This document shows, in pieces, positions 36,834 to 64,000 of a stretch of DNA of 64,000 nt. Where the stretch lies: NCBI RefSeq assembly GCF_009914755.1, contig NC_060925.1, one strand, 5' to 3'. The notes beneath the pieces are model-generated. The model worked only from the letters and a program-made list of their open reading frames with translations, was not told where the DNA came from and did no database searches. Made by a program: the position numbers and the translations under genes. The stretch's first letter is position 1; the number at the start of each line of letters is the position of its first letter. Source of the stretch: the human T2T-CHM13v2.0 reference genome, Homo sapiens.

Positions 36834-36939
36834 CAGTGCCTCGATTTTTGCATTTAAAATGAGGCGAAAGAACAAATGGAATAATTATAGAAAATTTTAG
36901 CCTCTAGCAAAACACTGTGAAGCAGCTCCAGCCTGTGGT

Positions 36940-37570
36940 GGAAGATGTGCGAAAGGGATGGGGGAACGCTGTGGACCGGTGTGGAGTCTAGGACGACAGG
37001 TGGTGGGCTCTGTCCCCACGCGCCTCGCGGCCAGCAGAGGCCCCCTCACTGCGGCCGCCGGGCGGGACTGGCGCGGGCGGCGCTGGGCTGGGCCCGGGAG
37101 GCTGGCATCCCTGGGTGCTCCGGTGCGGTACTAGGGGGCGACGGCTGAGCCGTGGGTGGAGCCGCTGGGTCAGTCTCGGATAGAAATAAACTGGGAAACT
37201 GCTGTGGTCTCTGTTGCTTGCGTGCTCGGTTTTCGTGCTTATCACGCTGATGATGAGGAAGGTGGTTTTGGTTACGGAGTGAGCAGGTGAACGCCTCCCC
37301 GTGGACCCCACCGGACTGGGTGGGGAACTCACAGCTCTGACGCCCCGTGACTGCATCCCCTAGCTGGGCAGAGACGCATTTGGCTCGCCACCAGCCACCT
37401 CCCAACAGCGCCCAGCTCGGGGAGCTCAGGGAATTTGCAGTTGAATCAGGCGTGGCTCCAGGGACCTGAGCTCTGCCTTCAGATGGATCCTAGTAATCCT
37501 CCAGGTGCGGCGGGAGAGAGCAGCCGACCATCCCCAACTCGGCTCAGAGCCTGGGGTCCTAACTCACGTG
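36940..37570. promoter_or_regulatory. CpG island around paralog exon 1
   Basis: Dense CpG/GC tract (GCGGCCGC, GGCGGG boxes) in an otherwise CpG-depleted region. Confidence 0.8.
37253..37286 (+). pseudogene. Paralog exon 1 (ATG AGG AAG GTG GTT TTG GTT..., 1-nt deletion)
   Basis: MRKVVLVT versus MRKVVLIT; 34 nt versus 35 nt; GCAG|gtga donor retained. Confidence 0.85.
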
Positions 37571-39364
37571 GTCATGTATCGGTTTCCAGTTGTTTCATGA
37601 TGTAGAGCTTCTCTCAATTAGGTTTAATTAACAAGTAGAACAAGGACTGGCAGAGCTTCATTGGATGTTGCACCCCTTACAGCTTCCCTCCAATGACTAA
37701 GCATTGGAGGGAAGAATCATTTACCTGTTGAATATGGAAAGAACATACAGACCCTTCAGTGGCTCATCTTGTAGGCCCTTTCTGCTTCTGGCTGTTTTAC
37801 TTATTTGCATTGCCAGTGCAGGGCATAAAAAAAAAGTGGCTATAGACATTAACCAATCCATTTTGCTGCTTTTGAAATCTGAATTTATGGTAGATGCTAG
37901 TACTAGATTAAAAGTTTCAATTAAAATGACTCAGTGTTTAGCATATTTACTTACATTTCCTGTTAATCAAAATTGATGTTTAGGTGCTTGAGGACACCTC
38001 TGCCACATCCAGTGAATCACCACTTCCCTTCTCATGCTCCTAAACAACCCCCAGACTGTCTTCCACCCACCAGTGCCGAAACAGTGCACACGATCAAGAT
38101 AGATTCTTGTTATAAAATTATATTAAACAACTAAATAGTACTAACCAATTTCCAGGCACCGTTCTAAGTGCATTATATATTTTTTTCATGTAATTTTCAT
38201 GCTGTAGGCTAGGCACCATTATTATCCTCATTTTACAGATAAGATAAAGGGATTAGTTATCTTGCCCAAGGTACAGAGCTAGTGAGCGATAGAGTCAGGA
38301 TTCAAATGTACCCAGTCTAGCTCTAGCTTCTGTACTCATAACTACCAAATTGTACAGTTCACAACATGGGCATTCTCTCTCTCTCTCTCTCTCTCTCTGA
38401 ATGTACATAAAAATAAGGTAAGGCTTATTTTTTCTCAGTGAAGGAAGATACACAGTGAAGGTGTTTGGCTCTGTGCTTACAGGCACAGCTGCTTAAGGAC
38501 ATGTTTCAGAGTGAGCTTTAGAGCATTCTTGAGCCATTTGTCACCTTGTGACAATTACAGGGAGACAGAGAGGATATATTCAGTGGCAGGTCATGGTTAT
38601 CATCTTTTTAATACACAGTCCTGTTTGCTTCCTTTGAAGGCTTTCTTCTGAAGACCTGTCTTCCTTTGACCTCCTGTATCCTCAGGTATCCTACTTTTCC
38701 TACTTTCTCCTTCCTGGCCTCTATTTGTATGTCCTCCATTCTTCTTTCTAAAGTCCTAATTTGTTCAAGGAAAAAAAAATCGCAAAGCCAAATAAACACT
38801 TAATTACACTGAATGCTCCTTTTTACATTAGTTATGTTCTCAGACTGACTGGCTAATGAACAATGAATTCATTCATTTATTCATGCAGAAAACGTTTGCT
38901 GTTTGCCCCTAGCTGTGATGATTAAACTTACTCATGGCATTGTATATGCCCATGAGGAACTTGCAAACTGCTTGAGAAAATAAAAATTGTATTAAAATGG
39001 TTGATAAAGATGCTGTCTTTAACACTTGCTATGGATGGTTTGTAATCACCCTTAGATATCAGTTGCATAGTAAATTCAGGATGATAACGTGCCTCAGAAT
39101 AATCTCAATAGAGCAATGAGCAATGGAAAAGTACAGCTCTCATTGTTGACAGTACACTAAGTAAGCGGCTATTAGAGTGTGAGTTCCCTCTTTCCTTTAC
39201 CTTTTTTTTAAAAAAAAAAAAGATTTTTAAGGCTTTAAAAAATCTTTCCTTGGGCTCCTGCTTGGAACCAAAGCAGTCAAAATCAGTTTTCTGAACCAGA
39301 GAGAAATGCCTCTACCTGATGCCATCCAGATAATGCACATTCTGTGTCTGAACTGCCCTCCCGG

Positions 39365-39564
39365 TGGCATTGACCTATCCTTCTGCAGCAGCTGCTGGTG
39401 GAAGATGATGAGCTTCACCTGTGTTTGCCATGCAGGAACATGAGCAATACAGAAGCTGTCCATGCAACTCTGCTGGCCTCTCACCATACGGTCAAGGTCA
39501 CCACGATGCAGGTGGATGGCAACCTGCAGTCAGTGCTCCAGGCCTCTAAGGAACTCAAGCAAAA
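39365..39564 (+). pseudogene. Paralog exon 2 (acceptor AG>GG, 1-nt and 3-nt deletions)
   Basis: About 84% identical to 7227-7430; ORF 39398..39601 reads [15 protein letters not shown]...ASKELKQK. Confidence 0.95.
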
Positions 39565-39964
39565 GTATGCCTGGACAGTCCTCATGAAATGGTATCTCTG
39601 ATTTCTATTTCAAGATGGCAGACTGAGCACTCGGTAACTGCCTTTTCCTTCCACATCGAATCTGGAATACACATATGTGAGTGCAATTACAGAAGTTTGG
39701 AGTGGCATCAGGGGATCCGCTGTGGAGGTAGAAGATTCTAGGAACTAGAAGAGAACAAAGGAAATAAAAAATGGTGATTGGTTGGGATACAATGGAAATA
39801 GCAGGCAGGTATGTAGGCCCCTGTAAACATCCCCTTGTCCTTTCTTAGAGCAGATTTCAAGTTCTTGATCCTTTAATCTTCTGGCTGTATATGCTCCTTA
39901 TTTTTCCTGTGATTCAGAGATACTTTTCTCTCTCTCCAATCCAAACTCTCATATTTACTGCTCC

Positions 39965-41620
<1,656 letters not shown>

Positions 41621-41702
41621 TACCAATGGGAGTATTTAGAAACTTGACAAACAGTTTATAAGAGTAATATGGATGTATAAAGATGTGAGACTAGCTAAAC
41701 AA

Positions 41703-42298
41703 TTTTTTTTTTTAGACAGTCTCACTCTGTCGCCCAGGCTGGAGTGCAGTGGCACTATCTTCTGCCGGGTTCAAATGATCGATTCTCATGCCTTAGCCCC
41801 CCTAGTAGCTGGGATCACAGGCGCATGCCACCACACCTGGGTAATTTATGTATTTTTTAATGGAGATGGGGTTTTGCCAGCCAGGTGTGGTGGTTCACAC
41901 CTGTAATCCCAACATTTTGGGAGGCAGAGGTGGGTGGATCACTTGAAGTCAGGAGTTCAAGACCAGCCTCGGCAACATGGTGAAACCCCATCTCTACTAA
42001 AAATACAAAAATTAGCCGGGCATAGTGGCACATGTTTGTAACCCCAGCTACTCGGGATAGTCACCTTTAGAAGGTAAGGTCTAATGAAAGGGATGCAGAG
42101 GTAGCAGTGAGCTGAGATCACGCCACTGCACCCCAGCCTGGGTGACAGAGCAAGACTCCATCTCAAAAAAGAAAAAAGAAAATAAATGGGGTTTCACTAT
42201 GTTGACCAGGCTGGTCTCAAACTCCTGGCCTCAAGTGATCTGCCTGCTTCAGCCTCCCAAAGTGCTAGGATTACAGGTATGAGCCACCACACCTGGCC
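41703..42298. mobile_element. Nested Alus: + AluS (about 41879-42185) inserted in a - Alu
   Basis: Outer Alu resumes at atggggtttcac; atggggttt duplicated at both junctions. Confidence 0.85.
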
Positions 42299-43259
42299 CC
42301 ACACAATTTTTAAATAGAAAAATAAGTAGGGAATATATTATATATATATTAAACTATATTATAAAGCTATAGCAGTTACAGTAGTGTGGAACTGATGCAG
42401 AAAATAATAAATTGAAGAAAACAAAATCCAGCACTAGTTCTATAAATGGGTGTCATTAAAATTTAGGGACAAGTAGTGGGTGGGACAATTGACTATATCA
42501 TGTGGAAAGATAAAGTTAGTTATCTTCCTCATCAAAGTCACAAAATTAAATGCTACATCAGTTAAAGGCTAAATGCAAATAAATAGATGAACAAATGAAT
42601 GAATAAAAATCCATAAACATATTAGAAAACAGAAGAATGTGATCATGAATTTGGAATTAAAACAGGATTTTTAAACAATACCCCCAAATCAAAAACCATG
42701 AAAAAAAAATGGGTGAAATTGACTATAAAAAACCAAATTACTGTTTAATAAGAGATACTAGAAATGAAGTTAAAAAACAAGGGTGAAGCTGGAAGAAGAA
42801 TATTCACAACATATAAAATAAATAAAATATTAAAATCTAGAAAATAAAATTATACTACAAACCATTAAGAAAATGACAACTCTATAGACAAATGGGCATA
42901 GTATAAAAATTGGCAATTCTCAGAAGAGGAGACTCAATGGCAATGAAGAAAAATGCTCAACCTCATTAGTTCTCAGACACATGTAAGTTAAAATTATAAT
43001 GCAAGACATTTCACACCCATCAGATTGGTAATAATAAACAAGCATAAAATTGTGTGGCTAGTGTACATAAATTGTGATAGTCACCTTTGGAATGTAAAGT
43101 CTAATGAAACTTTAAGTGTAACTTATGAACAAGCACTGATGATTTTTTGGGTGTCCTTCCTAGAGAAACTTTCCTACTTGTGCACAAGGAGGCAGGTACA
43201 ATGATTGGAGGCTACCTAATAGTAGCTATTCATCTATTTATCAATAGATGAATAGCCAA

Positions 43260-43563
43260 CCCATTCATGGATGAATAGATTAATGGGCTAATGGATTCAT
43301 GGGTTATTATGAAAGTAGGAATGGTGCCTTTGTGAGAAGAAGAAAAGAGACCTAAGCTAGCACATTATCATGCTCAGCCCCATCACTGTGTGATGTCCTG
43401 CACCACCCGGGACTCTTGAGAGTCTCTACCTGCAAGAATACCCTCACAGATGTGCCCTTGGATGTTGGACTTCTCAGCCTCCATAATCGTAAGAAATACA
43501 TTTCTTTGTAAATTACCCAGATTCAAGTATTCTACTATAAGCAACAGAAAACAGACAAAGACA
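43260..43563 (+). mobile_element. MST-family MaLR LTR fragment
   Basis: ...AAATTACCCAG...TATAAGCAACAGAAAACAGACAAAGACA end. Confidence 0.7.
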
Positions 43564-43669
43564 GCTATTCTCTCAGAAAGGAACAACTTTTTGATTTTTA
43601 ACTAAATAGCACATTGAGTAAAATTTCTTTTTCTTTTATTTTCTTCTTTTAAAAAATCGTCTGTTTCAG

Positions 43670-43784
43670 AAAGGTGATTCATGTATTCTCCATAGCTGAA
43701 GAACCGCTGACCCAGAATGGCAAGATTACTGCTGATGGGCTCTAGAAGGTGTTTGAAACCAACGTCTTTGACCACTTTATCCTG
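43670..43784 (+). pseudogene. Paralog exon 4 (in-frame TAG at 43743-43745)
   Basis: 115 nt like exon 4, about 83% identity, tttcag| and |gtaaaa sites intact. Confidence 0.95.
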
Positions 43785-43875
43785 GTAAAAGGGCTTTGAG
43801 CTTTATAGGCTCATCTACTCAGTGTTACAATTCTAATGGCAGTGCTGTTCTATTAAACTAATAGTTTTTGGCTAA

Positions 43876-44502
<627 letters not shown>

Positions 44503-45954
44503 TAAAGGGTAAATTTTGAGGGAGAAAGTGCAAACCAAAGAGAATTTGCATATAGAATGATCTGAGACATGTAGACTGGTCCCATAAAGAACGTTGTTTT
44601 CTGCTAAGCATATCTCCATTTAGAAGAGGACAGCAGGAAAGTTAAATGGAAGGCACTTTTTCATGCCCATTTGTTAGATGTGTCATGTACTAACAACTGT
44701 CTTAGATTAGTTAAATTTGTCCAATGTCAGTGTCAGGTACTGATGAAGAACATTAAGCACAGGTTAGACCAGTGTTCAAAAAAATTAGTTTTATCTCTTT
44801 CCAAATGTAGAGATTTTCTGGCTTCAGTGAAATTTTCTTCTGTGCTCTTTCCTGAGTCACATATGTCATACATAGTACTACTTTAATATCTGAATCAAGT
44901 AATTCCTGACTCTGGTAGGGGTCAGATGTAATTTGTTGATGTTGGATAAAGTACTTTTGCATCTAGAATTGCATGTCACAGAATTTGCGTCTCATTATAC
45001 CCAGGGGCAATATTCAAGATAGGCAACAATCAGATGGCATATGGGAGTCAAGTAGTCAGAAGAAATGTAAGCCATAGAACTAGAACAGAGTCTTGGAGCT
45101 TCCTAGAGGAAGAGGAAACCAACTCTTTAGTCAATGAGGTTTGGGGCAGGGCAGGGGAAGAGGAGGGGGAAGCGGCACCAGCAGGCTCAGGCTTTGTTAT
45201 TATATTTACCCACTGGTGTGGAAGTAGTCCAGAACTTAAAAACCAATACAGTTGTACTGGATAAATATTTGAATCATAATTCTATTGCTAAATATTTTAT
45301 GATTTAGCTCTTTAACTCAGTCTATTTCTTTTCATCCCTCTACAGTATAGAGGTTCCATGTCCAAGTTCCAAAGCCAAACTGTCTGCTTTCACATTTCAG
45401 CTCCATCACTTATTAGCTGAAGGACTTTGAACAAGTTACTGATCTTTCTGGATTAAGTTTAAGTTTCCTCATTTGTAAAATAAGAGTTAATAGTCATTAC
45501 CTCATAGAAGTATTGAATATTAAATGAATGAATATATATATATATACACACATACAATTGCATATGCATATATTAAGTTTCTCATAGAATGCTTTTAATT
45601 AAACAATATAAACTTCCTTATTCGGATGAATGGAATAAAAACAGAAGCAGAGTGGGGCTACAAGTTTTTATTTTTGCTCCTACATGGTGTGGATTTTCTT
45701 TATGAATAGGTGGATGTATGAATAGAGATTTGGAATCTTACAGCACTTTGGAAACAAATCTTGTTGTAAAGTTAATGTGTATGTTTTTATAAGCTGAGAC
45801 TTCTTCAGTTTTCTAACATGGCTCTTCCCCAGTTTCTAATATTCAATGTATTATTTAAGGTAAAGCGAATTGATATAACCCCCAAATCTCAATGGATTTA
45901 ATGCAATACTTGGTTCTTACTTACATAAAGTCTATTTAGTGGTTAGAGGGGTAG

Positions 45955-46507
45955 TGTTAAAGATATGTGAATGAGAACAACTCCATCTTGAATAGGAACT
46001 GGGTAAAATGAGGCTGAGACCTACTGGGCTGCATTCCCAGATGGTTAAGGCATTCTAAGTCACAGGATGAGATAGGAGGATGGCAAAAGATACAGGTCAT
46101 AAAGTCCTTGCTGTTAAAACAGGATGCAGTAAAGAAGCCAGCTCTAACCCACCAAAACCAAAATGGCCATGAGAATGACCTCTGGTGGTCCTCACTGCTA
46201 CACTTCCACCAGTGCCATGACAGTTTACAAATGCCATGGCACGACAGAAAGTTACCCTATATGGTATAAAAAGGGGAGGCATGAATAATCCACCCCTTGT
46301 TTAACATATCATCAAGAAATAACCATAAAAATGCGCAACCAGTAGCCCTTGTGGCTGCTCTGTCTATGGAGTAGCCATTCTTTTATTCCTGTACTTTCCT
46401 AATCAACTTGCTTTCACTTTCCTCTATGGACTCGCCCTGAATTCTTTCTTGTGAGAGAGCCGAGAAGCCTCTCTTGGGGTCTGGATTGGGACCCCTTTCC
46501 TGTAACA
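45955..46507 (+). mobile_element. MER41A solo LTR
   Basis: CAACTCCATCTTGAATAGG...GGACCCCTTTCCTGTAACA, 553 bp, 4-bp TSD GTAG. Confidence 0.88.
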
Positions 46508-47112
46508 GTAGGAGTCCTTGCTCTGCTTCATACAGTCACTCAAGGATCCAGACAGATGGAGGCTCTGCCTCTTTTTATCCATGGATTTTGAGATTACTCT
46601 GTCAATATCCATTTAGCATTTAGGGAAGAGAGAACATTACATGTGGGAGGTTTATATGAGCCTGATCTCAAAACGTACATAGGATTTCAGTTCACATTCT
46701 ACCAGCAAAAGTAATTTATATGACATACCTAACTGGAAGGGAAATTGGAGAATAGATTCTAGCTGAGTACACAAGAAGAAACGAACATAGGTTTGGTGAA
46801 TAGTTAGCTGTTGTTACTACATGTAGAATGAGGCCGATAACACAACCTGGCAGCTTGTTTCTAAGGATCAAAGATAATGCCTTTAAAGTATCCAGCACTG
46901 TTCCTGGAACCTAGGAGGTCCTCAGTAAGTTATAATGCCATATGAAGATTATTTTTATTATTATAGCTGAGGAACTGTTTTGGTTGTCTTTATTCTAGTG
47001 TTTTTGGGCTTGGTTGCGTTTGCTCATTTATTTATGCAGGCGTCAAATATTTCTGCAAACTCCCACATCACATTTTAAGATGCAGTTTTTTGTTGTTGTT
47101 GCTTGACCTCAG

Positions 47113-47296
47113 CTTCAAGAACTACAACCTCTCCTCTGTCATCTTGATTATCTTGGATACAACCTACAGTGCCTGGAAATCCCACTGTTATTATCAGGCT
47201 TGAAAACATCCAGCACAGCAAAGGCCAGGAGCCAGGCAGCTCTCCCAGATCACCACTGCCCTGAGTGTGGCTTTGAACAGAGACTTCAACCAGCAA
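47113..47296 (+). pseudogene. Paralog exon 5 (indels; YSSSK replaced by GSSPR)
   Basis: LQELQPLLCH start, ATCCAGCACAGCAAAGGC and TGAGTGTGGCTTTGAACAG blocks; |gtgagg donor. Confidence 0.92.
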
Positions 47297-49422: not shown

Positions 49423-50819
49423 CCAGCAATGTACAAAATCCCTCAATTTGGACACCATGCGTATGACCTCATTTTAAAATTTTCTGGGAAAAATTAATGT
49501 CTGAAGATGAAAATTCCTCTCCCATGTAAGTTAATGTTTCATTATGTCCTCAAATCATCCTTCTTCATTGCTTTGTCCACTATAGCCATCATGCTCAGAT
49601 GTTTAGGGTGAATAGGGCTGTCTCCAGCATCTGTAACCTGAGTAACCTGAGCTGCCTATTACTGGAATAGCCATTATTCCCTTAGAACTCTGTGACCGGA
49701 TTAATCAAAGCCCATTCTCTCATCACCCTCTCCTTAAAGAATCTATAGTATGAATAGGACACATAAGATTTTCCTAGCACTAGCCTCACACCCCAGGCTC
49801 CTAGAAACTACAAACAAATCTTGAGCCCCTATAGCAGTCATCCTAAGCAAACTTCAGAACCCACATTGCTATTATTTGCCAAAGACCGTAGCAGAGACTT
49901 TGTGGTAGAGTGTGAAAAACAAGAGAAAAGAGAACATTGTGTGGTTTTTCAGTTTCACTTGTATGCTTGGCTTCCTGTGCAGCTATCTAGAGTTTAACAT
50001 ATGGAAGAAATCACCCATCATGAGGTTTACTAAGGCACTTTGCCATATTTGCAAGAAAATGCACCTAAGCATATTTTCTGTCAGAGAATAGCATATGAGA
50101 CATTTCTTCTAGCAAATTTAAAAAGTTTATGTAGTGGCCAGCCACTATGTCTTTGCTTGAAATTCCCCTTTTCCCTTTTATGCCTATTTAAAACCTTTCA
50201 CTTCTTTTCCCTCTTAAGTCTTATGTCCCCAGAATCTCACTGCTACACTGGACTGTCTAGTGACACGTTTGTGGCTGATGTGCCCCAACGACTCACCTTG
50301 TAGCCTCTCCTTCTCCAAGTCCTGATCTCTTACTCTTTCTTTGGATTTCTTCAATCCAACAAAGTTCAAGACATTTTTGAACTTGATGTGGCTGTGGCCT
50401 TTGCTATTGTCCCCTTGCTCTGAAATTTCTTTAGGCCTATAAAAACTTGATTTTAGGGACAGTCTCTCCCTTGTCACAGGTTTACTTCAGCTAGAGAATC
50501 ATCTTCAGCATATACCTGAACTGAAACTGCTGTTAGTAATTCCAGAGTCTGGCTGCAAGGGACCCAGTGAAGGCCAATACTTGTAGTGCTATGTGCTGCC
50601 CAAACTTTACCCTTTCTGTATGTTTGCATGTTAGAAGCTTTGAATAATTTGTACTAGTAATGTCAAGTCCTGGACCAGTCTTTTGGCTTCCATGTGTTTT
50701 CTTTAGTCTGTTTCACCCTCCTGGTACTTTCCTAAGCATGTTCCTTCAAGGTATGTGCTGCAGTAACTTTCCCACTTCCAGTTACTGTCACCTTAACACT
50801 TTCTTATTTAATGCTTTAA

Positions 50820-51137
<318 letters not shown>

Positions 51138-52980
51138 AATGCTTTAATTTTTATATGCTGAGTTCCTTTCACATCTGGTTCCATCTTATATAATCATCTA
51201 GCAGAGCTGTTCTGCAGTCTTTAAGGAATAGTTGTAAATGTGTGTGTAATCATCTCTCTGTAGCTTGAAGGGTAGGGAGGAGTCATTTCAGTTTGCCTTT
51301 CTGCTTCTGTTCAGATTGTTGGAATCTGGTCACTCTTGCTTATCCTATAAACACTGAGCTGGAGCTAGGCAAGGTTGGAGTGTATTACCCATTCTTGAGG
51401 GCATCTGGGATTTTACTTAAGCCACAATTGTCATGAGAGGTTTGAGCTCCTTTTCTATAAATGGGGAATAGGGTAATGATAGAATATTTCTTTCTGAAGG
51501 CTCTATTGGCTTTCTTGATGAGAAAGGACCTGGGAAAGAACTAAACAGGACTATTCCTTTAGAAAGTTTATGTTATTGGTGGTTGTCCAGTTTCAGAGAA
51601 GTAGAATAATAGATTTAAATAGTTCACATACCTCTTGTAGAGAGTTTCAGGATTACCTGCATTTTTCCTTGAATTAAACTCATGGTGTGATTACAATGAA
51701 GGGCCCACTGGGCTGTGACTTCCTACCTGGTTAGTTTTTTTGTCTAATATTGATTATATGTGTTGGAGACTCTGAGTTTTAGCTCATAGATTTTCTCAGC
51801 TAGAAACTGAGTGGTGCTAAAATAAAAGAGAAATGCAGCTTCTCAGCTTTTCTGAGCACTCCTTGAGATAAGACACATTCCCCTCTTTGAGGAGGGGGGC
51901 CTGGATAGATATTTATAAAATGCTTACCACAATATCTGCTATATAGTGGCTATAGCTATATTTGTTTATTAAAATAAAAATAAATAAACAATGAGTTGCC
52001 AAGAGCTGTGATATTGAGCCTAAGGCTATTCACCTGACCTTTTCTGGGGATGTTATGAACTTCTTATTTAACCACATAAGTAGCATGAGAGGAGATCTGC
52101 TTTAAGGGCCAACAGACTTCCCTACTGCTGCCTGGAGGAAGAAAGCAATAGGCTTCTTTTATTTGGGGCACAGGCAAAACAGGGGCTGTCTCATTTACAC
52201 TGGTATTTTCTAGTCTTCACTTAAATGAATAAAATGAGGATTAAAATAAAATAAAGATTAAGATTAAAATGAATTGGTATAAAAATACTAATTCATATAT
52301 AATTAAGTATAATGTATATATGATTATATATGACATATATTTTGATTATGCTTATAATAATTATTATTTAAAATAAACTAAAATTAAGATGACAAATAAT
52401 AAATGTGTTCTTAGGATAAATTATCAATAATTAAAATAAATAGTTGAAAATTAAGCCATTATAAAATACTAAAGCAATTCTGCTGTGGTTAACAAATCAC
52501 TAAAGACCAAGCAGTGCTTTTAAATGGAATAAAATAGCTACAAGCCACCAACAGAAGTTTTGTGTAGACTGAGATTTTCATTCTGGCAGAACTTACTAGA
52601 GGGATGTGACCCTGGGCTAAACATCTCATTTTGAGCTTTCCAGCTCCAGTCTTTTTCTAATGACTAGAGCATCTACCTCAAGCTAGAGGCAAAGGATATT
52701 GTATCTCTGGGACCACTTCTTCTTCCCCAATCAGTTCTTAGGTAAAGGCATGGTATAGCTGTCTAATTTTTTATACTACAAGTTTCTAGGAATAGAGGCT
52801 TTCTTTTATGTCCCGGGTTCCTTTTACATGATAGACACATAATAGTTGTTGAACTGAAGAGATCTCCTATTTCAAAGAAAATTGACAGAGTGTGCTTAGG
52901 ACAATATCTTGCATATGAAGATGACATGGTAATTATCTGATGAATCAAGAACCTCATAGTGCCCCTCTCTGTGTCCCCAG

Positions 52981-53788
52981 GGCCTGTATTCCAGTGCACA
53001 GTTGAAACCACCTTTGCAAAAACTGTGACAGTGAGAGAAATCTAACATAACTAATTCCATCTGACTTGTAATCTCACAAACTATTCTTGCTCATTCCTGG
53101 GCGTAGGCTATGGGAGGAATTTAGTTTACAGTTTAACTTTAAAACAAAGTCGTTTCCTGAAACTAACCTCCTCCTTGCTCAGGGACTTAAACTGCCTTTG
53201 TAGAACTCCACAAGGTTAGAATTATGGTTCAGGAGTTATGTAGCCAGAGGTAACAAGAATTAACCTCCTCAATTGCTCCTATAGATAGCATCACTATTGT
53301 AAAAACTAAAACTGGTGTTTGAGGTGTTTTTCAGACCTTGCATTTTGATGGACCAGGTGGTGCCACCTGGACTGGTAGCCATACCAATAAATTGGCTCAA
53401 CTGGTCTTGTGACCCCTACCCAAGAACCAACTCAACATGACAAGAGAACTTCAACCGCCTGTAATTTTATCTCTGACCCAACCAGTCAGCATCCCTCATT
53501 CCCTAGCCACCTGCCCACCAAACTATCCTTGAAAAACCTTAGCCTCTGAATTCTCAGAGAGGTAGATTTGCGAAACATCTCCCACCCTTCAGCTTGGCTG
53601 GCACTGTGATTATTAAACTCTTTCTCTACCGCAACTCCTGCTGTTCTCAGTGTTTGGCGCTTCTGGGCAGCAGGCAAGATGAACCCACTTGGGTGATTAC
53701 AGGGTGCTCAGGCACAGTGGTGGCCAACCTTACATATGAAATTCTGCCTCCTTTAATCTGGATGCTGCTGGTGCCCATCATATTATTG
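52981..53788 (+). pseudogene. Paralog exon 6, split by a solo LTR (52981-53002 and 53702-53788)
   Basis: ccccag|GGCCTGTATTCC ... CSGTVVANLTYEILPPLIWMLLVPIILL|gtgagt; 22+87 = 105+4 nt. Confidence 0.92.
53003..53701 (+). mobile_element. LTR8-family (LTR8A-like) solo LTR inside paralog exon 6
   Basis: TGAAACCACCTTTGCAAA...GAACCCACTTGGGTGATTACA; ATTAAA at 53612-53617. Confidence 0.85.
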
Positions 53789-54466
53789 GTGAGTAAGAAA
53801 TATGACTTCACTATAAAAATGCATTCACTTTGGGTACATATAAGATTAATTTTAGGTTTGGGGAGCAAAGAAAGCAGATGTTTATGTAAATTACAAGTTT
53901 TAGCAGTTTTCAAGTTCATTAATTCTTTATCTTTACTTTATCCTACTGATCCAGAGGGTACAGCATGTGGGAATTTATTTTGCACTCTTGTTTGTACCAT
54001 ACAGTGTTCTCTGAGGCAATATACCTCAGCAGGTGCCACCAGGTGTAATGCAATTATCTTTGCACTTAATGTCTTCCATCAGCTGGACTTGCTTCCCTCA
54101 TGTTGGCTGCCTGACTTTGAGAAACACAGAAATGTGAGACCTTGGGAACATCAGGAACTGCCTTTCTTTTAGAAATTATTTTCCAACATGGGTTCTTCAG
54201 GAAAGTAGTTATTCTGCAAGATGTCAGTAGGTAATAAAAAAAAGCAAGCAAGCAGGGAATAAAGAAAGAAAGAGGAAGGAAGGGGAAGGGAAAGAAAGAG
54301 GCATAGTGGAGAAGTAGAAAGGGGAGCAAGGGAAGAAAGAAAAAAAGAGAGAGAGAAACAGAAAGAAAGAGCAACAGAGAAAGAAAGAGAGAAAGAAAAG
54401 AAAGAAAGAAGAAAGAAAGAAAAAGAAAGAAAGAAAGAAAGAAGGAAGGAAGGAAGCAAGGAAGGA

Positions 54467-54946
<480 letters not shown>

Positions 54947-55428
54947 TTAACTGTGGAACTTGCCAAGATCTTTACTATGCTAGTATCATGTTACCATGTG
55001 TGAATCCCTAAGATGGGGATAGAAGATACAGTGTATCCCAAATGCATTCAAACACAGACTCCTTTTTTGAGGACATCTTGTGGCCAGAATGCTCTATGAA
55101 AACACTGGGGGAACTGTTCCTAAAAGGTAAAGGCTTCTGTATATCTTTACTGTTGTTGTAATATTCCTCCTTTTCAACAAAGCTTAGACAAAAGATTAGA
55201 AAGGAATATGCTGACACATCAATAGCATTGCCTCCTAATGCTGGGACCTTGTATACATTTTTAGGTTCCTGTAACATTTTTTGTACTTTCCAAATATCTA
55301 CAATTAACATGCATTTGTTATTATATCCTAAAATAATTAAATAAAAATTATGTTTTTATGACCCTGGTTACACTAGCAAAAATGTTGCTAGTTCTTAATG
55401 GGTAACTTATCTTTCTTCCTTTGCTCAG

Positions 55429-55487
55429 CTGTACTTTTCCTGGTGAATTCTTTCACAGCAACACCTTACAATGGAGCAGAAGTGTTA
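55429..55487 (+). pseudogene. Paralog exon 7 (+2 nt frameshift)
   Basis: ctcag| ... NSFTATPYNGAEVL |gtaagt versus NAFTLTPYNGTEAL. Confidence 0.88.
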
Positions 55488-56150
55488 GTAAGTGCTGTGA
55501 CATCAGAATCCTTCTTAACACAGTGATCCAAGAGTAGCTGCTAACAATCATGGCCCATGAGAAACAAACTAATTTGCCAAACCTTCCTTGTATCTAGTGA
55601 GAGAGATCCCAGTGCACTGTACTTGCATGCTGGTGTGCCTGTCTCCCACCGCCTCTCTGTGAGCAGCTCTAGACCCTCACCCAGCATGGGAATGAGTGCT
55701 CAATGAGCAGCAGCCCTTCTCTGTGTATCTACAGTGCCTAGCCCAGTAGTGGCTAGCCCGGAAGTGCCTACTCCTAGTGGGTGCTTCATAAATGCTAGCT
55801 GATTAAAATTAAGTAAAAGATTCGGTAAAAGGAATCTATGTTCAGAGTGAGAAATCTTCAACTGATTTTCTTATAAAGTTTTCTCTCCTTTTGAAAACCA
55901 CCAGGAACATTAATAAGCAACCTATTGAGGACTCTTACTTTCTATACATCTATACATTTACAGCATTGGGATATAAGTCAAAGGCATGGGTATTTATGCT
56001 CAGGCTTGTGCTAAGAGCCCCAAGGGACAGAGAAAAAACAGTCACTGGTAATCTGTCCCCCCTCACATGCACAATGCAGGGAACTTAAATCTTGATGAGG
56101 ATACAAAATTTAAGTACAGAGACAAAGAGAGGTCAAAAACAAGACCTCCT

Positions 56151-57549
<1,399 letters not shown>

Positions 57550-58665
57550 AAGACCTTCTGAACTCAAGTTTTGAATTGCTGCTGCTCCAGCAGACAGGAA
57601 GGGAGAGATTCCCCTGCAAAATCATGCATTAAGTGGGACTTGTGCTGAGCCCTGAAACATAAACAGATTTCAACATAATCTAATTTTTAGTTGATGGTGA
57701 TCCTGTTTGGATATCTTATAACGTGGTCGCTAGGAGACTATCATCCAAGGCTTCATTTTAGTTCTAACATAATGCTTAGTTTTTCGTAGGTGAAGGGCAT
57801 TAAAAAAGTATGCGTATGTATGTGTCTCACACACAATATACACACACAGATACTCTTTGTTTCATTAATTGTGAGATTTACATTTTCATATTTTAACTTA
57901 TTTGAAATTGTGATGCATTTTACAATCAAGAGCATGCCATAGTTTAATTGGCAGCATTCTTTTTCTTTCTTACTAGTACATAAACAAGGGTGCATCTCAT
58001 AAAATTGGCATCCTGGATCAGATGAAATACAGTATTAAATATTTATGTCTATTTACATATGTATAAGTGTACTTGTTTGGGAGTATGTATCTCTATACTC
58101 ACATCAACATGTGAACATGTATTACAAATGCAGTTTGCTGTTCCATTCAGTCATTTGAATAAAATGGGCTGCCATAGAAGCCATCAGGCTTAGCCCTTCA
58201 TTGTCGGTCAGACCTGGGTTTGGATGTACTTGCTCTCCAGTTCCATTTGGAAAAGTGGACTCACAATAATTTTATGCCAAATGATGTCTATAAAATGTGT
58301 TGCCTTAGTTTTGGCTGAGGGGTCTATTTAGATCCATGTGTTACCATTCCGTTTTCAAGGTCCTGGGAGATCAGGGATTCATATGTTACTGTGACACAGC
58401 GTGTGCAAAATTATAGAGTTTTAGGGAAGGAAACAATTGTAATGGGATTTTCTCCCTTTACATAATTTGCAAGGACATTGTTAATCAGTTTGTCCCACTA
58501 CCTTCCTATGGCTTACTTTTGAGAGTATAAATCACTGAAAAAAATCACAAATGAAGAACATGGAATTTGTAAGTTTTGTTCAGTGTAAGGTACTAGGTGG
58601 ACAGCACCAGAGCCTCCCTTAGCTCAGGTAGGTGTGAATCACTGACATTCCCACCTCCTTCCTAG

Positions 58666-58762
58666 TTACGGCTGGTTCAATAACAGCCTTTAGTCTCTCA
58701 ATCCACTGACCAAATAACAGAGTGCTATCAGGCCTTGGGAACAATTGTATCAATACCCCAGT
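58666..58762 (+). pseudogene. Paralog exon 8 (stops and indels)
   Basis: TCTCTCAATCCACTGACCAAATA versus TCTCTCAATCCTCTGATCAAATA; upstream aatcactgaca matches aatcattgaca; cctag| and |gtaagt. Confidence 0.85.
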
Positions 58763-59668
58763 GTAAGTTATTTTAACATTGTTTAAATGAAGACTTTTAG
58801 TAGGGAGACCCCACCTTCTCTGCAAATCCTTGCCGCCCATTCCCTGCCATGCTCCTCCTCTTCCTAACTCCCTAAGCTCCAGCCACAGGGCTTTTCTCTC
58901 AGGACCACCCCCACCCCCTTGCTTCCCCCTCTCCAACCCTGCTTCTGCTCCCTAAGGGCCTTTGCTCAGGTTCACCTTCCCTCTGGAAACTCTCTGCTCC
59001 TCCCTCCTTCCCTTTTAACTTGCCAGTTTCTCCTTATCCCTCAAATCTCAGCTGAAATTTCAGGCCCTCATTGAAGCCTTTCTTGTCTCTCCAGACTAAT
59101 TCAGGCCTCTGTTTTTGGTTTTCTTTGCACATATACTTTTCACTCATCATAATTGTAATTAAATAATTACTTGAATTTTACTTTCTTATTGTTTGGCTCT
59201 CCTGCCAGAGTAGATGCTCCAGGAGGAGGGTTTTCTGTGTCTCCACCCCTGGAACAGGGCCTTTATACAGAGCAGACAAGAAATATGCATTGCATGAACT
59301 GCCAAATAAAGGAGAGCATGGTATTAACCTAAAGGAGTATTCCCTTAAGAGATTCTCTACTTCTTAATTCATCCTAAAGACCACTGTCACTTTGACCATT
59401 AGCAGCTATAGTAGTTTGATATAAGAAATGCTGTTTTGAAAGCACTGAAGATGAAGTACAGAAAAAGTCTTCTTAGATTCAGACCAGTCTTTTGCAAAAA
59501 AAAGTTCTACAATAAGAAAAGAGAAAATTTATTATTAATTTACAAAAACTGTCTTTTATCTTGATCACATTCAAGGTTTCTTTCAGTTGAATATCCCCAA
59601 GAGCACTTTTGGCTCTTGTAGAGAAATATGATATGGTGATTTACTTGGAGGTTGGGAGGAAACAGAGT

Positions 59669-59708
<40 letters not shown>
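59669..59708. repeat. (TG)n microsatellite, about 20 units
   Basis: Directly visible. Confidence 0.95.
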
Positions 59709-59713
<5 letters not shown>

Positions 59714-60822
59714 CAAATATCCATCTATCAGACATCTTTATTAAATTAGCTTCACAAGCATGAACAAACAGCCTGGAAGTTGGCCATGACTGCAACAATC
59801 ATACCTTGTATTCTATTTTCTGTAATGAAAGAACAGCACCAATCACAGAATGGTGTTCAATACAGATATTTGTTGAATGAATGATTCTCAAGAAATACAG
59901 CAGTGGGTGTTTTAGCCCCTGGCCAGCAACCAACATGTTGCATATATTATCTTAATTGTGTATCAGAATGCTTAATAAAATTCAGCCTTCCCCCTAGTTG
60001 TATTAAAACTGATGAAATAACAAGGAGAGAAAAAAGGGAGAGAGAGAGATTGATTCTTGGAAGAAAGAGAATGATTTGACTATAGCCAAAACATAGGAGT
60101 GCCTAGAAATCCAGGCATGAAGTAGCTCCTGCCAAGGGCAAGATTTTGTCTCCCTGATGTGTCCTGTGCCTCAGACACATCGCAATATATTGCCCTCTAT
60201 CTCCTCTTGTTGACAGTTTCTACTGGACTCCTAGCCACTGTCTAATTCTCTTTCTTCAAATTTTTTTCTAATTGTTAATCTCTTTCAGAAAGATTGAGAG
60301 CGCTAGCACAGTTCTCCCAACCCCCAAGTTACTTTCTACATCAAGATAGCATCTTATGTACAAGTCCATGCAGCAGGTCCAGTGAGCTTAGCATCCCGCA
60401 GCCTTCCAAGTTTGGTTGCCAGGGTCTTCCCAGCAAGAGGGGAGGGCCATTACTCCTTGGGTTTTCCAAGTTCTTGGAAATGGCTTCATCTTTCATGAAG
60501 ATGCCCAAGCCAGGGACCGGAATCCCACCTTACCTTCCTTCTTCAGACCTAGGCAGCCACCACGTTCTTCCTTTTGAACATTTTTCTAATCTTCCCCTCT
60601 TCTTGATCTACACCACTCTGACCTCATTGGGTCCCTCAACCTCTCTCATGTTAGCCAGACCTACAGTTTTATCCCCTGATTCTTGGCCTACCCTGGAAGC
60701 CCTTCTCTCTATAGCAGCCAGAAAGATATATATAAAATCCAGAAGTGGCTCTAACCTTTTAAAAGTTCTGAAGTAGCCAGGCCCAGACAAAGTCCAGACT
60801 GATCAGCATAGTATGTAAGTAG

Positions 60823-61149
<327 letters not shown>

Positions 61150-62591
61150 TCAGTTTATTTATTAGTAGCATCCCTTTTCACTCTTGGAAGTGTTCTGGTT
61201 TAGACGGTCAGTTTTGTAGTCCCCTCAATATCAAGTTTTTCATTATCTGAATCTCCCACTTCTCCAGCTCTTCAGCACATCCACTCAGCAGCTTATCTCC
61301 TGCTCATCTCTCCCTGGGCTTCCTCCTCCCACTGGAGCAGGATGGCTGTAGCAGATGTTCCAGAAGCAACATCTAGGAAGTCACATCCAGATAGGACAGT
61401 GTCTAAAGGATGGAAACAACTGTTTTCTCTGTGTCTATTTCTTAGGAATGGGAATGTCTTTCCCAGAAGTCTTCAGGAGACTTCCCTTCATGTCTAACTG
61501 AGAAGGATTGAGTCACTTGCTCTTTTCTAAACAAGCCTCTGGCAAGAAAGAAAGAATGACCATGACCGATGTTTATCATTTGCGGTAGACGTGAGGAAAT
61601 AGGTAATGACCGTGACTGTAACACCAATTTTTGTTTAATTTGCTTTGGGGCCTGTTGATTCCACTAGACGGCAAGCAAGATCACTGTGTGGGATATGTGT
61701 TCACCCTTAGCCCCAAGCACAGTGCCTGCATCAGCGGGCACTTTTGTTGCCATTGTTGAACTTTTGGATGGATGCAAGCTAGGCGGTATAATGTAGTGGG
61801 GAGAACAGGGTCCTTGGAGCTAGATAGAAATAGGCTTGGTCCCCAGCTCAGTACTTGCTGCCTGTTTAGGATCTTGCTGGACTTCTGAAGTTCAAAATCT
61901 TTAAGCTTCAGATTTCTTACCTGTAAAATGAAGCAAAGACTACCCCCGAGAACACATGTAACACAGATGAACCAGCCAAAACAGCCACAGATATTTCTCC
62001 AGTTTCTTAACATTTCCATTTAATTCTAACAATATTTTTGAGTGAGGGTGTGGCAATGTTTGTGTGTGTATGTGTGCACTTGTGAACAGGTGTATGTCAT
62101 GTATATGTGGGAATACCTGTAAGAAAAATGGAGGAAAATATCTTCTAAGGAAAATGTCATTCCTGCTATTGCCTTCTGGAATTTATGAGGTCTTTGCTGA
62201 CTATTTGACCTGTAAAAGATAAAAAGCCTCTCTTAACCTATTTTTCATTCCAGGAAAGTGTTTCTAACGTGTGCTTTGTGGATTGTAATAGTCCCTGGAG
62301 ATGATTTATGGACAAAGTTTTCATGGTCATATTATTTGGGGGAATTCAGTGTGGTGTGATTTCCCCCTTGACAGTCACAGTGACATTAGCATATTAAAGG
62401 CTTAGAGAAGTCTCATAGAGAAATTTGTTTTCATTGTTTAACCCAGGTTTCTCCAAATTTATTTTAACCCAGAGTCCTTTTTTTTTCTGACAGCACCTAA
62501 CAAGATCTTTTGCAATGCTCTTTGGGAAATTATATTAGCCTAATTACTAATTTCCTGGCCCTCAAGGTGACTTGCTTGAACTTGCCACCTT

Positions 62592-62609
62592 CGCCACTAG
62601 GGGGCAGCA
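62592..62609 (+). promoter_or_regulatory. CTCF-binding motif
   Basis: CGCCACTAGGGGGCAGCA matches the core CTCF consensus. Confidence 0.7.
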
Positions 62610-63451
62610 TTGGTTTACACAGGGTGAACAAACGTTCAATTCTAAACTAATATTCTTTGGTGGGAAAGTGTGTTCATTTTGGTTTGTTTTGAAGAAGTCA
62701 CTTCATACCTTTGAACTGGGGTTAAGCTGGTTAACTCCCAAAATTCCACCAGTTCCAATATCCTATGAAAAACCCCAAAACCACTAGTATAAATAAGATA
62801 GTTATTTCTGTTACTAAGTAAAGTTTTGTTAATTTTTTTAGTGATATTTAGGATTAAATGGCAAAGTATGGGTAAGCTGTAGAACTTTCCACCTAGGGAT
62901 TCTGATTGCCCTTAGCCAAAGTACATTCTCCTGAGCGTGAATTATTTTCCATCCCTGGAGAGTTAGCTATGAGGCAAAAGGAAAGTCTGTATAGGTTTTC
63001 AATAATGAAAGAAGGACCCTTGGGAATCAGTTGTTATGAGAAAAAGCTTCTCACCTTATCGCTGCTGGGACAATTAAGGAAAAGTCTTGATTTTAGAATT
63101 GAGGTCCCTGTCAAGGCTTGGTATTAAAACCTGTATTAGGGACGTTTTTTTTTTCTATTTGGTCATGACACCAGTTGTTAGTGCTTCTGCTGCAGAAACA
63201 AAGATATTCGGGGGCAGCAAAGCTCAGACGTGCCAGCTTTTCTGTTTAAGAGAAGTCCCACTTGGTTTGGTAAGGGATGGAGTTAGAACCATGTGATAAC
63301 ATGTTCTTAAGTTCCCTGTGATTCCTAGAATTGCCTTATCTTGCTGATCTCTTTCTGTCTAGATTTTTAATTCTCTTCCTATAGACTATGCCAAATGTCA
63401 TTTTTAGTCCAAACTTAATTAATTTTATTTTTCTTTATTTTGGGACCCAAC

Positions 63452-63965
63452 TGTATTAGTCAGGATTATCTAGAGGGACAGAACTAATAGGATATACATA
63501 TATGTGTTTATGTATATATGTATATATCCCCATAATATATGTATATAGGGGAGTTTATTAAGTATTAACTTACACGATCACAAAATCCCACAATAGGTCA
63601 TCTGCAAGCTGAGGAGCAAGGAGAGCCAGTCCGAGTCCCAAACCTGAACAACTTGGAGTCAGATGTTTGAGGACTGGAAGCCTCCAGCACGGGAGAAAGA
63701 TGTAGGCTGGGAGGCTGGGCCAGTCTATTCAGTTTGATTCCAACCAAAATGTGCTATGTCTTTTCACATTTTTCTGACTGCTTTATACTCTAGCTGTGCT
63801 GGCAGCTGAATAGATGGTGCCCACCCTGATTAAGGGTTGGTCTGCCTTCCCAGCCCACTGACTCAAATGTTAATCTCCTTTGGCAACACCCTCCCAGACA
63901 CACCCAGGACTGATACTTTGAATCCTTTAATCCAGTCAAGTTGATGCTTAATATTATCCATCACA
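63452..63965 (-). mobile_element. MLT2A (ERVL) solo LTR
   Basis: TGTATTAGTCAGG...AGAGGGACAGAACTAATAGGA...CCATCACA, 5-bp TSD CCAAC. Confidence 0.88.
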
Positions 63966-64000
63966 CCAACTTATACTTCATTTTGCTTGTATTTTTCAGA

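What the first reader, a model, noticed from the sequence alone, without database searches (positions are those of the whole stretch)
37253..64000. Hidden tandem, intron-containing second HSD17B7 gene (decayed paralog)
Seen: homologs of exons 1, 2, 4, 5, 6, 7 and 8 lie in order on the same strand about 10 kb downstream of HSD17B7, with matching sizes (34/35, 200/204, 115/115, 184/195, 105+4/105, 59/57, 97/99 nt) and mostly intact splice sites. Lesions include an exon 1 frameshift, exon 2 acceptor AG>GG, TAG in exon 4, an LTR in exon 6 and stops in exon 8. I found no Alu or L1PA shared with the functional gene's introns. Inference: an ancient pre-Alu tandem duplication, distinct from the recent chr10 HSD17B7P2 copy. 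It may already be partly annotated as an unnamed pseudogene; I cannot check.
Basis: partly seen in the sequence, partly recalled or inferred. Interest (0 to 1): 0.85.

Follow-up and report, generated by a model that had tools for sequence, protein, structure and literature searches.

The report
Ancient dead tandem copy of HSD17B7
About 10 kb downstream of the human cholesterol-synthesis gene HSD17B7 lies a broken second copy with its introns, which arose before placental mammals diversified, probably survives intact in elephants and manatees, and in humans keeps only its CpG-island promoter in good condition.

Summary
Homologs of HSD17B7 exons 1, 2, 4, 5, 6, 7 and 8 lie in order on the + strand at 37253-58762. 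I also found exon 9, which starts at the last base of the window (64000). Only exon 3 is undetectable.

Over eight exons, 689 of 893 ungapped positions are identical (77.2%), and 13 of 14 splice dinucleotides are canonical.

The copy is dead:
- 5 premature stops and 19 indel events
- a 699-bp LTR inside exon 6
- exon 2 acceptor AG>GG
- catalytic Tyr and Lys replaced

The duplication is old: dS is 0.62, against 0.15 for the 1q44 processed pseudogene.

In protein trees the copy groups with intact 'HSD17B7-like' proteins of Asian elephant and manatee (support 97-98/91). That group is sister to all other placental HSD17B7 and lies inside the marsupial split. AU tests do not reject alternative placements (p 0.06-0.32), so orthology is likely but not proven.

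dN/dS is 0.31, against 0.54 for the processed-pseudogene control. This suggests the copy worked for a long time before it died.

Its promoter is still a CpG island (36831-37430, o/e 0.74) and overlaps a RefSeq enhancer.

RefSeq does not annotate the copy. I could not check GENCODE. It is a real, ordinary kind of feature (an old unprocessed pseudogene) with an interesting history.

The parts
36831..37430 (.). CpG island at the relic promoter and exon 1 of the dead copy. It overlaps the RefSeq 'enhancer 37148-37753'.
   Evidence: 600 nt, GC 0.61, CpG o/e 0.74, 41 CpG. HSD17B7's own island at 4621-5330 has o/e 0.77. The window background is 0.21. The other 4 of 6 passing intervals lie in masked Alus. 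Sequence similarity to the gene's promoter is weak (181 of 309 columns).
37253..37286 (+). Pseudo-exon 1: ATG kept, 34 nt against 35 (a 1-nt deletion causes a frameshift), donor GT.
   Evidence: 27 of 34 ungapped positions identical.
39218..39364 (+). The 3' end of pseudo-intron 1, unusually well conserved against gene 7087-7226.
   Evidence: 112 matches, 21 mismatches (84.2%, K2P 0.18). Unrelated 100-nt pairs under the same aligner give 62 +/- 5%.
39365..39564 (+). Pseudo-exon 2: 200 nt against 204, acceptor AG>GG, donor GT, two deletions (1 and 3 nt).
   Evidence: 168 of 200 identical (84.0%); tblastn E 4.5e-21.
43670..43784 (+). Pseudo-exon 4: 115 nt against 115, both splice sites intact, in-frame TAG.
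   Evidence: 95 of 115 identical (82.6%).
47113..47296 (+). Pseudo-exon 5: 184 nt against 195, 5 indel events. The catalytic YSSSK motif reads GSSPR.
   Evidence: 138 of 177 ungapped positions identical (78.0%).
51404..51793 (+). Collinear remnant of intron 5, matching gene 16430-16861.
   Evidence: 58%, E 9e-10; 69.6% ungapped, K2P 0.39.
52981..53002 (+). Pseudo-exon 6, 5' piece (22 nt), acceptor AG.
53003..53701 (+). 699-bp dispersed repeat with TG...CA ends (solo-LTR-like; family not named) inserted in exon 6.
   Evidence: 2908 first-look candidates in the genome, 40 scored, near-full-length copies 72-78% identical; 4 of 4 fetched copies start and end at the same bases.
53702..53788 (+). 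Pseudo-exon 6, 3' piece (87 nt including a presumed 4-nt target duplication), donor GT.
   Evidence: with 4 nt removed, exon 6 aligns without gaps, 73 of 105 identical.
55429..55487 (+). Pseudo-exon 7: 59 nt against 57, both splice sites intact.
   Evidence: 38 of 57 identical. tblastn with the manatee paralog gives 83% of 18 aa.
58666..58762 (+). Pseudo-exon 8: 97 nt against 99, both splice sites intact, three stops in the aligned frame, 4 indel events.
   Evidence: 69 of 95 identical; 0 of 200 shuffles reach its score.
62383..62656 (+). Collinear remnant of intron 8, matching gene 21093-21356.
   Evidence: 60%; 67.7% ungapped.
63150..63390 (+). Collinear remnant of the 3' part of intron 8, matching gene 26543-26777.
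   Evidence: E 3e-13; 76.0% ungapped.
63452..63930 (+). Dispersed repeat of about 480 bp, inserted just upstream of pseudo-exon 9. It pushes exon 9 to the window's edge. The 3' limit is not resolved.
   Evidence: 3669 first-look candidates, 40 scored, 76-85% identical, covering query 13-491.
64000..64000 (+). First base of pseudo-exon 9. The acceptor AG is at 63998-63999. The exon runs to about 64125, outside the window, and carries an in-frame TAA.
   Evidence: gene 26778-26941 against 63913-64080, 66%, E 9e-15; tblastn 13 of 21 aa, E 7e-5 to 7e-4 with four different orthologs; 81 of 110 ungapped positions identical.

Best explanation
This is an unprocessed pseudogene: the remains of a second, tandem HSD17B7 gene (3-ketosteroid reductase, short-chain dehydrogenase family). 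It spans about 27 kb, from 37253 to about 64125, on the same strand as HSD17B7.

Shown:
- Eight of nine exons survive in order, with intron positions kept.
- The reading frame is destroyed many times over, and catalytic residues are gone. It cannot encode the enzyme.

Inferred, probability about 0.9: the duplication happened on the stem lineage of placental mammals, after the split from marsupials and before the living placental orders diverged.

Inferred, probability about 0.65:
- The human relic is the ortholog of the intact 'HSD17B7-like' genes of elephant and manatee.
- It stayed under purifying selection for roughly half of its history. It then died in the human lineage at or before the insertion of the LTR into exon 6, tens of millions of years ago.

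Inferred, probability about 0.5: the relic promoter, still a CpG island, is kept unmethylated in the germline and acts today as a regulatory element. It coincides with a RefSeq enhancer feature.
For: Anatomy:
- Collinear exon hits.
- 689 of 893 ungapped exon positions identical.
- 13 of 14 splice dinucleotides canonical.
- Collinear intron remnants.
- Exon 9 found just past the window.

Death:
- 5 premature stops and 19 gap events.
- LTR in exon 6.
- Exon 2 acceptor GG.
- Gly15>Asp, Tyr193>Gly and Lys197>Arg, while both paenungulate paralogs keep TGxxxGxG and YSSSK (the manatee one also NAG).

Age:
- dS is 0.62, against 0.149 for the 1q44 processed pseudogene.
- 0 sites where the copy shares a state that is rare among canonical proteins but present in Homo.
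- It has placental-derived L6, A50 and D307. It keeps ancestral S256 and L269 where canonical proteins are derived.

Orthology:
- The IQ-TREE clade (copy + Elephas P0039 + Trichechus P0023) has support 98/91, 97/91 with exon 9, and 98/93 on exons 5-9 alone.
- In a FastTree of 137 rows the clade holds only these three (support 94).
- At 11 scorable sites that separate the two paralog groups, the copy has the 'like' state at 6, the canonical state at 2, and another state at 3.
- Its highest identity is to the manatee paralog: 71% of 266 columns, against 68% to Homo.
- Both paralogs of elephant, and both of manatee, sit on one chromosome-scale contig.

Past function: dN/dS is 0.31 (bootstrap 0.22-0.45). 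The control that has been neutral since birth gives 0.54 (0.34-0.89), or 0.65 on the same codons.

Promoter: CpG island overlapping the RefSeq enhancer in the supplied table.
Against: - AU tests do not reject placing the copy with primate HSD17B7 (p 0.32) or with all 27 canonical placental proteins (p 0.21 on all columns; p 0.060 on exons 5-9).
- The copy has a long branch (0.5), which can be pulled toward the base of the tree.
- Only two intact paralog proteins were found. Their position relative to HSD17B7 in those genomes could not be seen.
- The bootstrap intervals for dN/dS of the copy and of the control overlap. The frame was imposed by alignment to the gene, which may bias both rates.
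- Exons 2 and 4 (84% and 83% identical) and the intron 1 flank (84%) are closer to the human gene than exons 5-9 (67-78%). dS is 0.43 for exons 1-4 against 0.79 for exons 5-9. This may reflect later gene conversion and blurs the dating.
- No expression or methylation data were available for the CpG island.
- Absolute ages rest on substitution rates recalled from the literature, not computed here.
Confidence: 0.85

Rival explanations
1. The human relic and the paenungulate 'HSD17B7-like' genes come from separate duplications. For example, there may have been an Afrotherian duplication plus an independent old one in the human lineage. The tree would then join them only because a long branch is drawn to a basal clade.
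For: AU tests leave other placements open (p 0.32, 0.21, 0.060). Only one clean shared derived residue was seen (Val267). Most sites shared with the 'like' proteins are retained ancestral states. Synteny was not testable.
Against: The canonical elephant and manatee proteins sit inside Afrotheria (95/95), while the 'like' pair sits outside all 27 canonical proteins (99/94). The like-to-canonical identity of 77-83% is as low as placental-to-marsupial (75-80%), against 90% for Homo-Elephas canonical. So the paenungulate paralog is itself as old as the placental stem, the same window of time as the human relic. One duplication is the simpler account.
Confidence: 0.25
2. The copy was dead on arrival. 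It never functioned and has drifted neutrally since the duplication.
For: The dN/dS intervals overlap (0.22-0.45 against 0.34-0.89). Exon 3 is missing. No intact ortholog was found in any of the many boreoeutherian species in the protein lists.
Against: The point estimate of 0.31 is about half the control value on the same codons (0.65). The copy's own amino-acid divergence, by three-point comparison of the identities, is about 22%, against 7-10% for the functional lineages. That is a 2-3 fold excess, not the 4-5 fold expected if neutral throughout. If it is orthologous to the paenungulate genes, the ancestor was functional at the placental root.
Confidence: 0.2
3. A recent (primate-era) segmental duplication that decayed unusually fast.
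For: The AU test does not reject a clade with Homo and Rhinopithecus (p 0.32). Exons 2 and 4 are slightly closer to the human protein than to the manatee paralog.
Against: dS of 0.62 is four times that of the 1q44 processed pseudogene. Most intron flanks are at noise level. No collinear shared Alu or L1 was seen. There are 0 sites where the copy shares a Homo state that is rare among canonical proteins. It lacks the canonical-derived residues at 256 and 269.
Confidence: 0.03
4. The matches are chance or repeat-derived similarity and not a gene copy.
For: None beyond the weak individual scores of exons 1 and 7.
Against: Eight exons lie in order on one strand, with matching sizes and splice sites. 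E-values go down to 4.5e-21, and 0 of 200 shuffles reach the exon 8 score.
Confidence: 0

Closest known systems
HSD17B7P2, the intron-containing copy on chromosome 10 (here G000:C10:38.40-38.42 Mb)
   Same: An unprocessed, exon-by-exon copy of HSD17B7 that keeps its introns.
   Different: It lies on another chromosome and is young. Against the manatee protein its exons score like those of the functional gene (69-79% against 72-82%), while the tandem relic scores 47-66%. All nine exons are found there.
Processed HSD17B7 pseudogene at 1q44 (G000:C1:247258317-247259291)
   Same: A dead copy of HSD17B7 on chromosome 1, with stops and frameshifts.
   Different: It is intronless and derives from the canonical mRNA: 86.5% identity by blastn and 90.5% ungapped, against 65% to the tandem relic. 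dS is 0.149 and dN/dS 0.54. I used it as a neutral control.
Predicted 'HSD17B7-like' proteins of Elephas maximus (P0039) and Trichechus (P0023)
   Same: Nearest relatives of the relic in every tree. They are encoded on the same chromosome-scale contig as the canonical gene. They share Val267 and the ancestral residues 254, 256 and 269 with the relic.
   Different: They are intact. Pfam adh_short scores 97.2 and 75.1 bits, against 95.7 for human HSD17B7. Cofactor and catalytic motifs are kept. They are 91% identical to each other, which implies purifying selection. Their function has not been tested.
Human unitary pseudogenes such as GULOP or the urate oxidase relic (recalled from the literature, not from any call)
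   Same: A gene that is intact in some mammals but is a decayed relic at the syntenic place in humans.
   Different: A functional paralog (HSD17B7) remains next door, so no enzymatic activity is known to have been lost. Synteny with the intact genes is not shown.

Membership tests
Unprocessed (duplicated) pseudogene of HSD17B7 | Homology to the parent gene's exons, in the same order and orientation | tested here: met
   Eight of nine exons found, collinear on the + strand. Exon 3 not found.
Unprocessed (duplicated) pseudogene of HSD17B7 | Introns retained at the parental positions (not a retrocopy) | tested here: met
   Pseudo-exon boundaries coincide with the gene's. 13 of 14 splice dinucleotides are canonical. 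Collinear intron remnants are present.
Unprocessed (duplicated) pseudogene of HSD17B7 | Disabling lesions | tested here: met
   5 premature stops, 19 gap events, an LTR in exon 6 and the acceptor loss at exon 2.
Functional short-chain dehydrogenase/reductase (Pfam adh_short) | Gly-rich cofactor motif TGxxxGxG and the catalytic Tyr-x-x-x-Lys | tested here: not met
   The copy reads xGVSSGID and GSSPR in place of TGASSGIG and YSSSK. The exon 2 fragment alone gives no Pfam match.
Ortholog of the paenungulate HSD17B7-like gene | Forms a clade with those genes, to the exclusion of canonical HSD17B7 | tested here: inconclusive
   Clade support is 98/91, 97/91 and 98/93 and FastTree 94. AU tests give p 0.32, 0.21 and 0.060 for the alternatives.
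Ortholog of the paenungulate HSD17B7-like gene | Same genomic position (tandem, between HSD17B7 and CCDC190) | not testable with these tools
   Only the contig length is given. Both paralogs are on one contig in Elephas (221,642,160 bases) and in Trichechus (209,730,343 bases).
CpG-island promoter | At least 200 nt with GC >= 0.5 and CpG observed/expected >= 0.6 | tested here: met
   36831-37430: 600 nt, GC 0.61, o/e 0.74.
CpG-island promoter | Unmethylated, with transcription start or open chromatin | not testable with these tools
   The only evidence is the RefSeq 'enhancer 37148-37753' line in the supplied table.

The most novel reading that the evidence does not exclude
Placental mammals began with two tandem 3-ketosteroid reductase genes.
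- The copy that became canonical HSD17B7 picked up derived residues in exons 7-8.
- The second copy kept the ancestral sequence and still works in elephants and sea cows.
- In the human lineage the second copy functioned for about half of its history and then decayed.
- Its CpG-island promoter was kept and now serves as an active regulatory element beside HSD17B7.
Probability: 0.35. Interest if true: 0.55.

Novelty: new member of a known kind. Interest (0 to 1): 0.4.

Why it matters
- It adds a gene-sized feature that RefSeq does not annotate to a well-studied locus, and it explains the origin of a RefSeq enhancer and an orphan CpG island.
- It shows that HSD17B7, an essential enzyme of cholesterol synthesis with a second role in oestradiol formation (recalled from the literature), had an ancient placental paralog. 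That paralog seems to survive only in Paenungulata. It offers a natural experiment on the division of the two roles and on lineage-specific gene loss.
- In practice, reads, probes or variant calls for HSD17B7 exons 2 and 4 (83-84% identical) could occasionally cross-map here.

Tried and rejected
- Exon 3. Smith-Waterman of exon 3, with and without flanks, against 39565-43669 scored 12 and 13; 112 and 143 of 200 shuffles reached these scores. tblastn with the manatee paralog also found nothing there at E <= 1.
- Exon 9 inside the window. Nothing was found. It was found only after I fetched the next 5 kb.
- Was the 1q44 processed pseudogene a retrocopy of the dead paralog, which would have proved past transcription? 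No. It is 86.5% identical to the canonical CDS and 65% to the relic.
- AU tests did not settle the placement.
- Rfam, 28000-64000, gathering thresholds: 0 matches.
- Pfam on the open part of pseudo-exon 2: 0 families.
- The search of protein representatives returned 150 unnamed representatives. I did not use them further.
- Literature. Five searches found only HSD17B7P2 mentions and fish duplicates, and nothing on a tandem mammalian paralog: HSD17B7 + pseudogene (60 papers, 25 listed); HSD17B7P1 (0 papers); HSD17B7 + tandem duplication (3); HSD17B7 + unitary pseudogene (1); and 'HSD17B7-like / HSD17B7L / dehydrogenase 7-like / HSD17B7P' (41, 20 listed). I read passages of PMC8073704 and PMC3484327 and only the search listings for the rest. 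Supplements were not opened.
- Most 100-nt intron flanks are no better than unrelated sequence (60-74% against 62 +/- 5%), so they do not date anything.
Full report

Yes. I built the 341-aa HSD17B7 protein from the annotated CDS and searched the window with tblastn. Besides the gene's own exons, there is a second, collinear + strand series:

| Exon | Place | Result |
|---|---|---|
| 2 | 39380-39568 | E 4.5e-21 |
| 4 | 43668-43790 | E 9.7e-13 |
| 5 | 47113-47296 | E 4.9e-4 |
| 6 | 53702-53791 | E 2e-7 |
| 7 | 55437-55490 | E 0.005 |

Exon-wise blastn added exon 1 (37253-37286) and exon 8 (58667-58758). Exon 8 scores 36 against shuffles of mean 11.2 and maximum 19; 0 of 200 shuffles reach it.

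Local alignments with flanks show that homology runs into the introns at most junctions. A blastn of the gene region against 28001-64000 gave 150 matches. Apart from Alu and L1 matches, they form one collinear chain that includes three intron remnants.

- exon 1 has a 1-nt deletion
- exon 2 has acceptor GG
- exon 4 has a TAG
- exon 8 has three stops in the aligned frame

**2. Corrections and additions to the anatomy**

Exon 6 is split by a 699-bp element at 53003-53701.
- The element begins with TG and ends with CA.
- It has thousands of relatives in the genome: 2908 first-look candidates, 40 scored, with full-length copies 72-78% identical.
- 4 of 4 fetched copies share its exact ends.
- With a 4-nt target duplication removed, exon 6 is 105 nt and aligns to the gene without a gap. 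I could not name the repeat family.

- A dispersed repeat of about 480 bp (63452 to at least 63930) pushes it to the window's edge.
- The acceptor AG is at 63998-63999, and the exon starts at 64000. It continues for about 125 nt in the next stretch.
- Its translation aligns with [13 protein letters not shown]..., and it carries an in-frame TAA.

Exon 3 was not detectable by DNA or protein search.

In all, 689 of 893 ungapped exon positions are identical to the gene (77.2%). There are 19 gap events and 5 premature stops. 13 of 14 splice dinucleotides are canonical.

**3. It cannot encode the enzyme**

Beyond the stops, frameshifts and the LTR, the cofactor motif reads xGVSSGID where the gene has TGASSGIG. 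The catalytic YSSSK reads GSSPR.

**4. How old is it?**

- Synonymous divergence from the gene is 0.62 over 275 codons.
- An internal yardstick is the processed HSD17B7 pseudogene at 1q44, found by searching the whole genome. It has dS of 0.149.
- Most 100-nt intron flanks are indistinguishable from unrelated sequence.
- At the protein level there are 0 sites where the relic shares a state that is rare among canonical proteins but present in Homo.
- The relic has the placental-derived residues L6, A50 and D307. It keeps the ancestral S256 and L269 where 24-26 of 27 canonical placental proteins are derived.

So the duplication lies after the marsupial split and before the crown of placental mammals. 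Absolute dates would rest on recalled substitution rates, and I do not press them.

**5. Relatives elsewhere**

A protein search with the exon 2 translation returned named vertebrate orthologs. It also returned second, 'HSD17B7-like' predictions in Asian elephant (P0039) and manatee (P0023). Each lies on the same chromosome-scale contig as the canonical gene.

Trees:
- In an IQ-TREE analysis the relic joins these two with support 98/91. I chose 38 of the 161 proteins then held to cover the orders, dropping isoforms, fragments and two long rows (P0030, P0047), and added the relic.
- In that tree the 27 canonical placental proteins form a clade (99/94). Both together form a clade (96/82) inside the marsupial and monotreme outgroups.
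- Adding exon 9 gives 97/91. Exons 5-9 alone give 98/93.
- In a FastTree of all 136 proteins of at least 290 aa plus the relic, the clade holds only these three rows (support 94).

Site and identity evidence:
- At 11 scorable sites that separate the two groups, the relic has the 'like' state at 6, the canonical state at 2 and another state at 3. The 2 canonical states are ancestral states that the paenungulate proteins changed.
- On the 266 columns where the relic has a residue, identity is 71% to the manatee paralog, 68% to Homo, 66% and 63% to canonical elephant and manatee, and 64% to a marsupial.
- The two 'like' proteins are 91% identical to each other. They are only 77-83% identical to canonical proteins, about as far as placental from marsupial.

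Against this, AU tests do not reject a clade of the relic with primate HSD17B7 (p 0.32). Nor do they reject a clade with all canonical proteins (p 0.21; p 0.060 on exons 5-9). The relic has a long branch. I therefore rate orthology at about 0.65.

The paenungulate proteins look functional. They have full adh_short matches of 97.2 and 75.1 bits, against 95.7 for human, and their motifs are intact.

**6. Did the human copy ever work?**

- Pairwise dN/dS against the gene is 0.31 (bootstrap 0.22-0.45).
- The processed pseudogene has been neutral since birth by its nature. It gives 0.54 (0.34-0.89), or 0.65 on the same codons.
- Taking about 0.2 for the functional lineages (inferred from the control), the relic would have been constrained for roughly 40-95% of the time since duplication, with a central value of about 70%.
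- The LTR copies differ from the window copy by 22-28%. This suggests an old insertion and therefore an early death. The count of stops points the same way: 5 in 281 codons, against 3 in 321 for the control.
- The intervals overlap, so this step is inferred and not shown.

**7. What may still work**

The window has two large CpG islands that do not lie in masked repeats:
- HSD17B7's own, at 4621-5330 (o/e 0.77)
- one at 36831-37430 (600 nt, GC 0.61, o/e 0.74, 41 CpG), over the relic's promoter and exon 1

The window background is o/e 0.21. The relic's exons hold 6 CpG, against 14 in the gene's exons.

A CpG island that persists in a long-dead gene implies continued protection from germline methylation. 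It coincides with the RefSeq 'enhancer 37148-37753' of the supplied table. I infer, at about 0.5, that the relic promoter is a live regulatory element. No expression data were available.

**8. Oddities**

- Exon 2 with the 140 nt upstream of it is 84% identical to the gene, and exon 4 is 83% identical. Exons 5-9 are 67-78% identical.
- dS is 0.43 for exons 1-4, against 0.79 for exons 5-9.
- A later gene conversion or local constraint could explain this. I did not test it formally.

**9. Novelty**

The RefSeq table lists no gene between HSD17B7 and CCDC190. Five full-text searches found no description of a tandem mammalian paralog. GENCODE could not be consulted and may already carry a pseudogene model.

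The kind of object is ordinary: an old unprocessed pseudogene. The particular history is a modest but real addition, with a probable intact ortholog in elephants and sea cows, a likely long functional phase and a surviving CpG island.

Noticed in passing
53817-53843 (pseudo-intron 6): A 27-mer just 29 nt after the pseudo-exon 6 donor matches gene exon 7 (nt 15-41) at 23 of 27 positions, with 16 in a row exact (blastn E 0.002). The true pseudo-exon 7 lies 1.6 kb further on. The same stretch also aligns with the gene's intron 6. This is unexplained.
   Followed up: partly
39218-39364 against 7087-7226: The last 140 nt of intron 1 are 84% identical between the two copies (K2P 0.18). That is better than any exon, while other intron flanks are at noise level. 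Possible causes are gene conversion or a constrained intronic element. A RefSeq silencer lies nearby in the gene's intron 1 (6654-6854).
   Followed up: partly
26952-26984 (end of the HSD17B7 CDS): The last 30 nt or so of the human coding sequence, including the stop codon, match Alu copies all over the window and lie in the masked interval 26952-27276. Human HSD17B7 is 341 aa, while most mammalian orthologs listed are 334 aa. The human C-terminus therefore looks Alu-derived.
   Followed up: no
G000:C1:247258317-247259291 (L001, L002): An intronless HSD17B7 processed pseudogene at distal 1q. It is 86.5-90.5% identical to the canonical CDS, with 3 stops in the aligned frame, dS 0.149 and dN/dS 0.54. 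I used it as a neutral control.
   Followed up: yes
HSD17B7 exons 7-8 (18831-20056) against pseudo-exons 55429-58762: At residues 254, 256, 269 and 273, most canonical placental proteins (22-26 of 27) carry states that differ from the outgroups. The relic and the paenungulate paralogs keep the outgroup-like state. After the duplication, the canonical gene was therefore the copy that changed in this C-terminal part.
   Followed up: partly
Protein lists: Two HSD17B7-type proteins are named after the neighbouring gene DDR2 in their sources (P0098 Crocuta, P0101 Oryctolagus). These are probably read-through or mislabelled models.
   Followed up: no
50020-50129: A second RefSeq enhancer lies in pseudo-intron 5. 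It has no detectable counterpart in the gene's intron 5.
   Followed up: no
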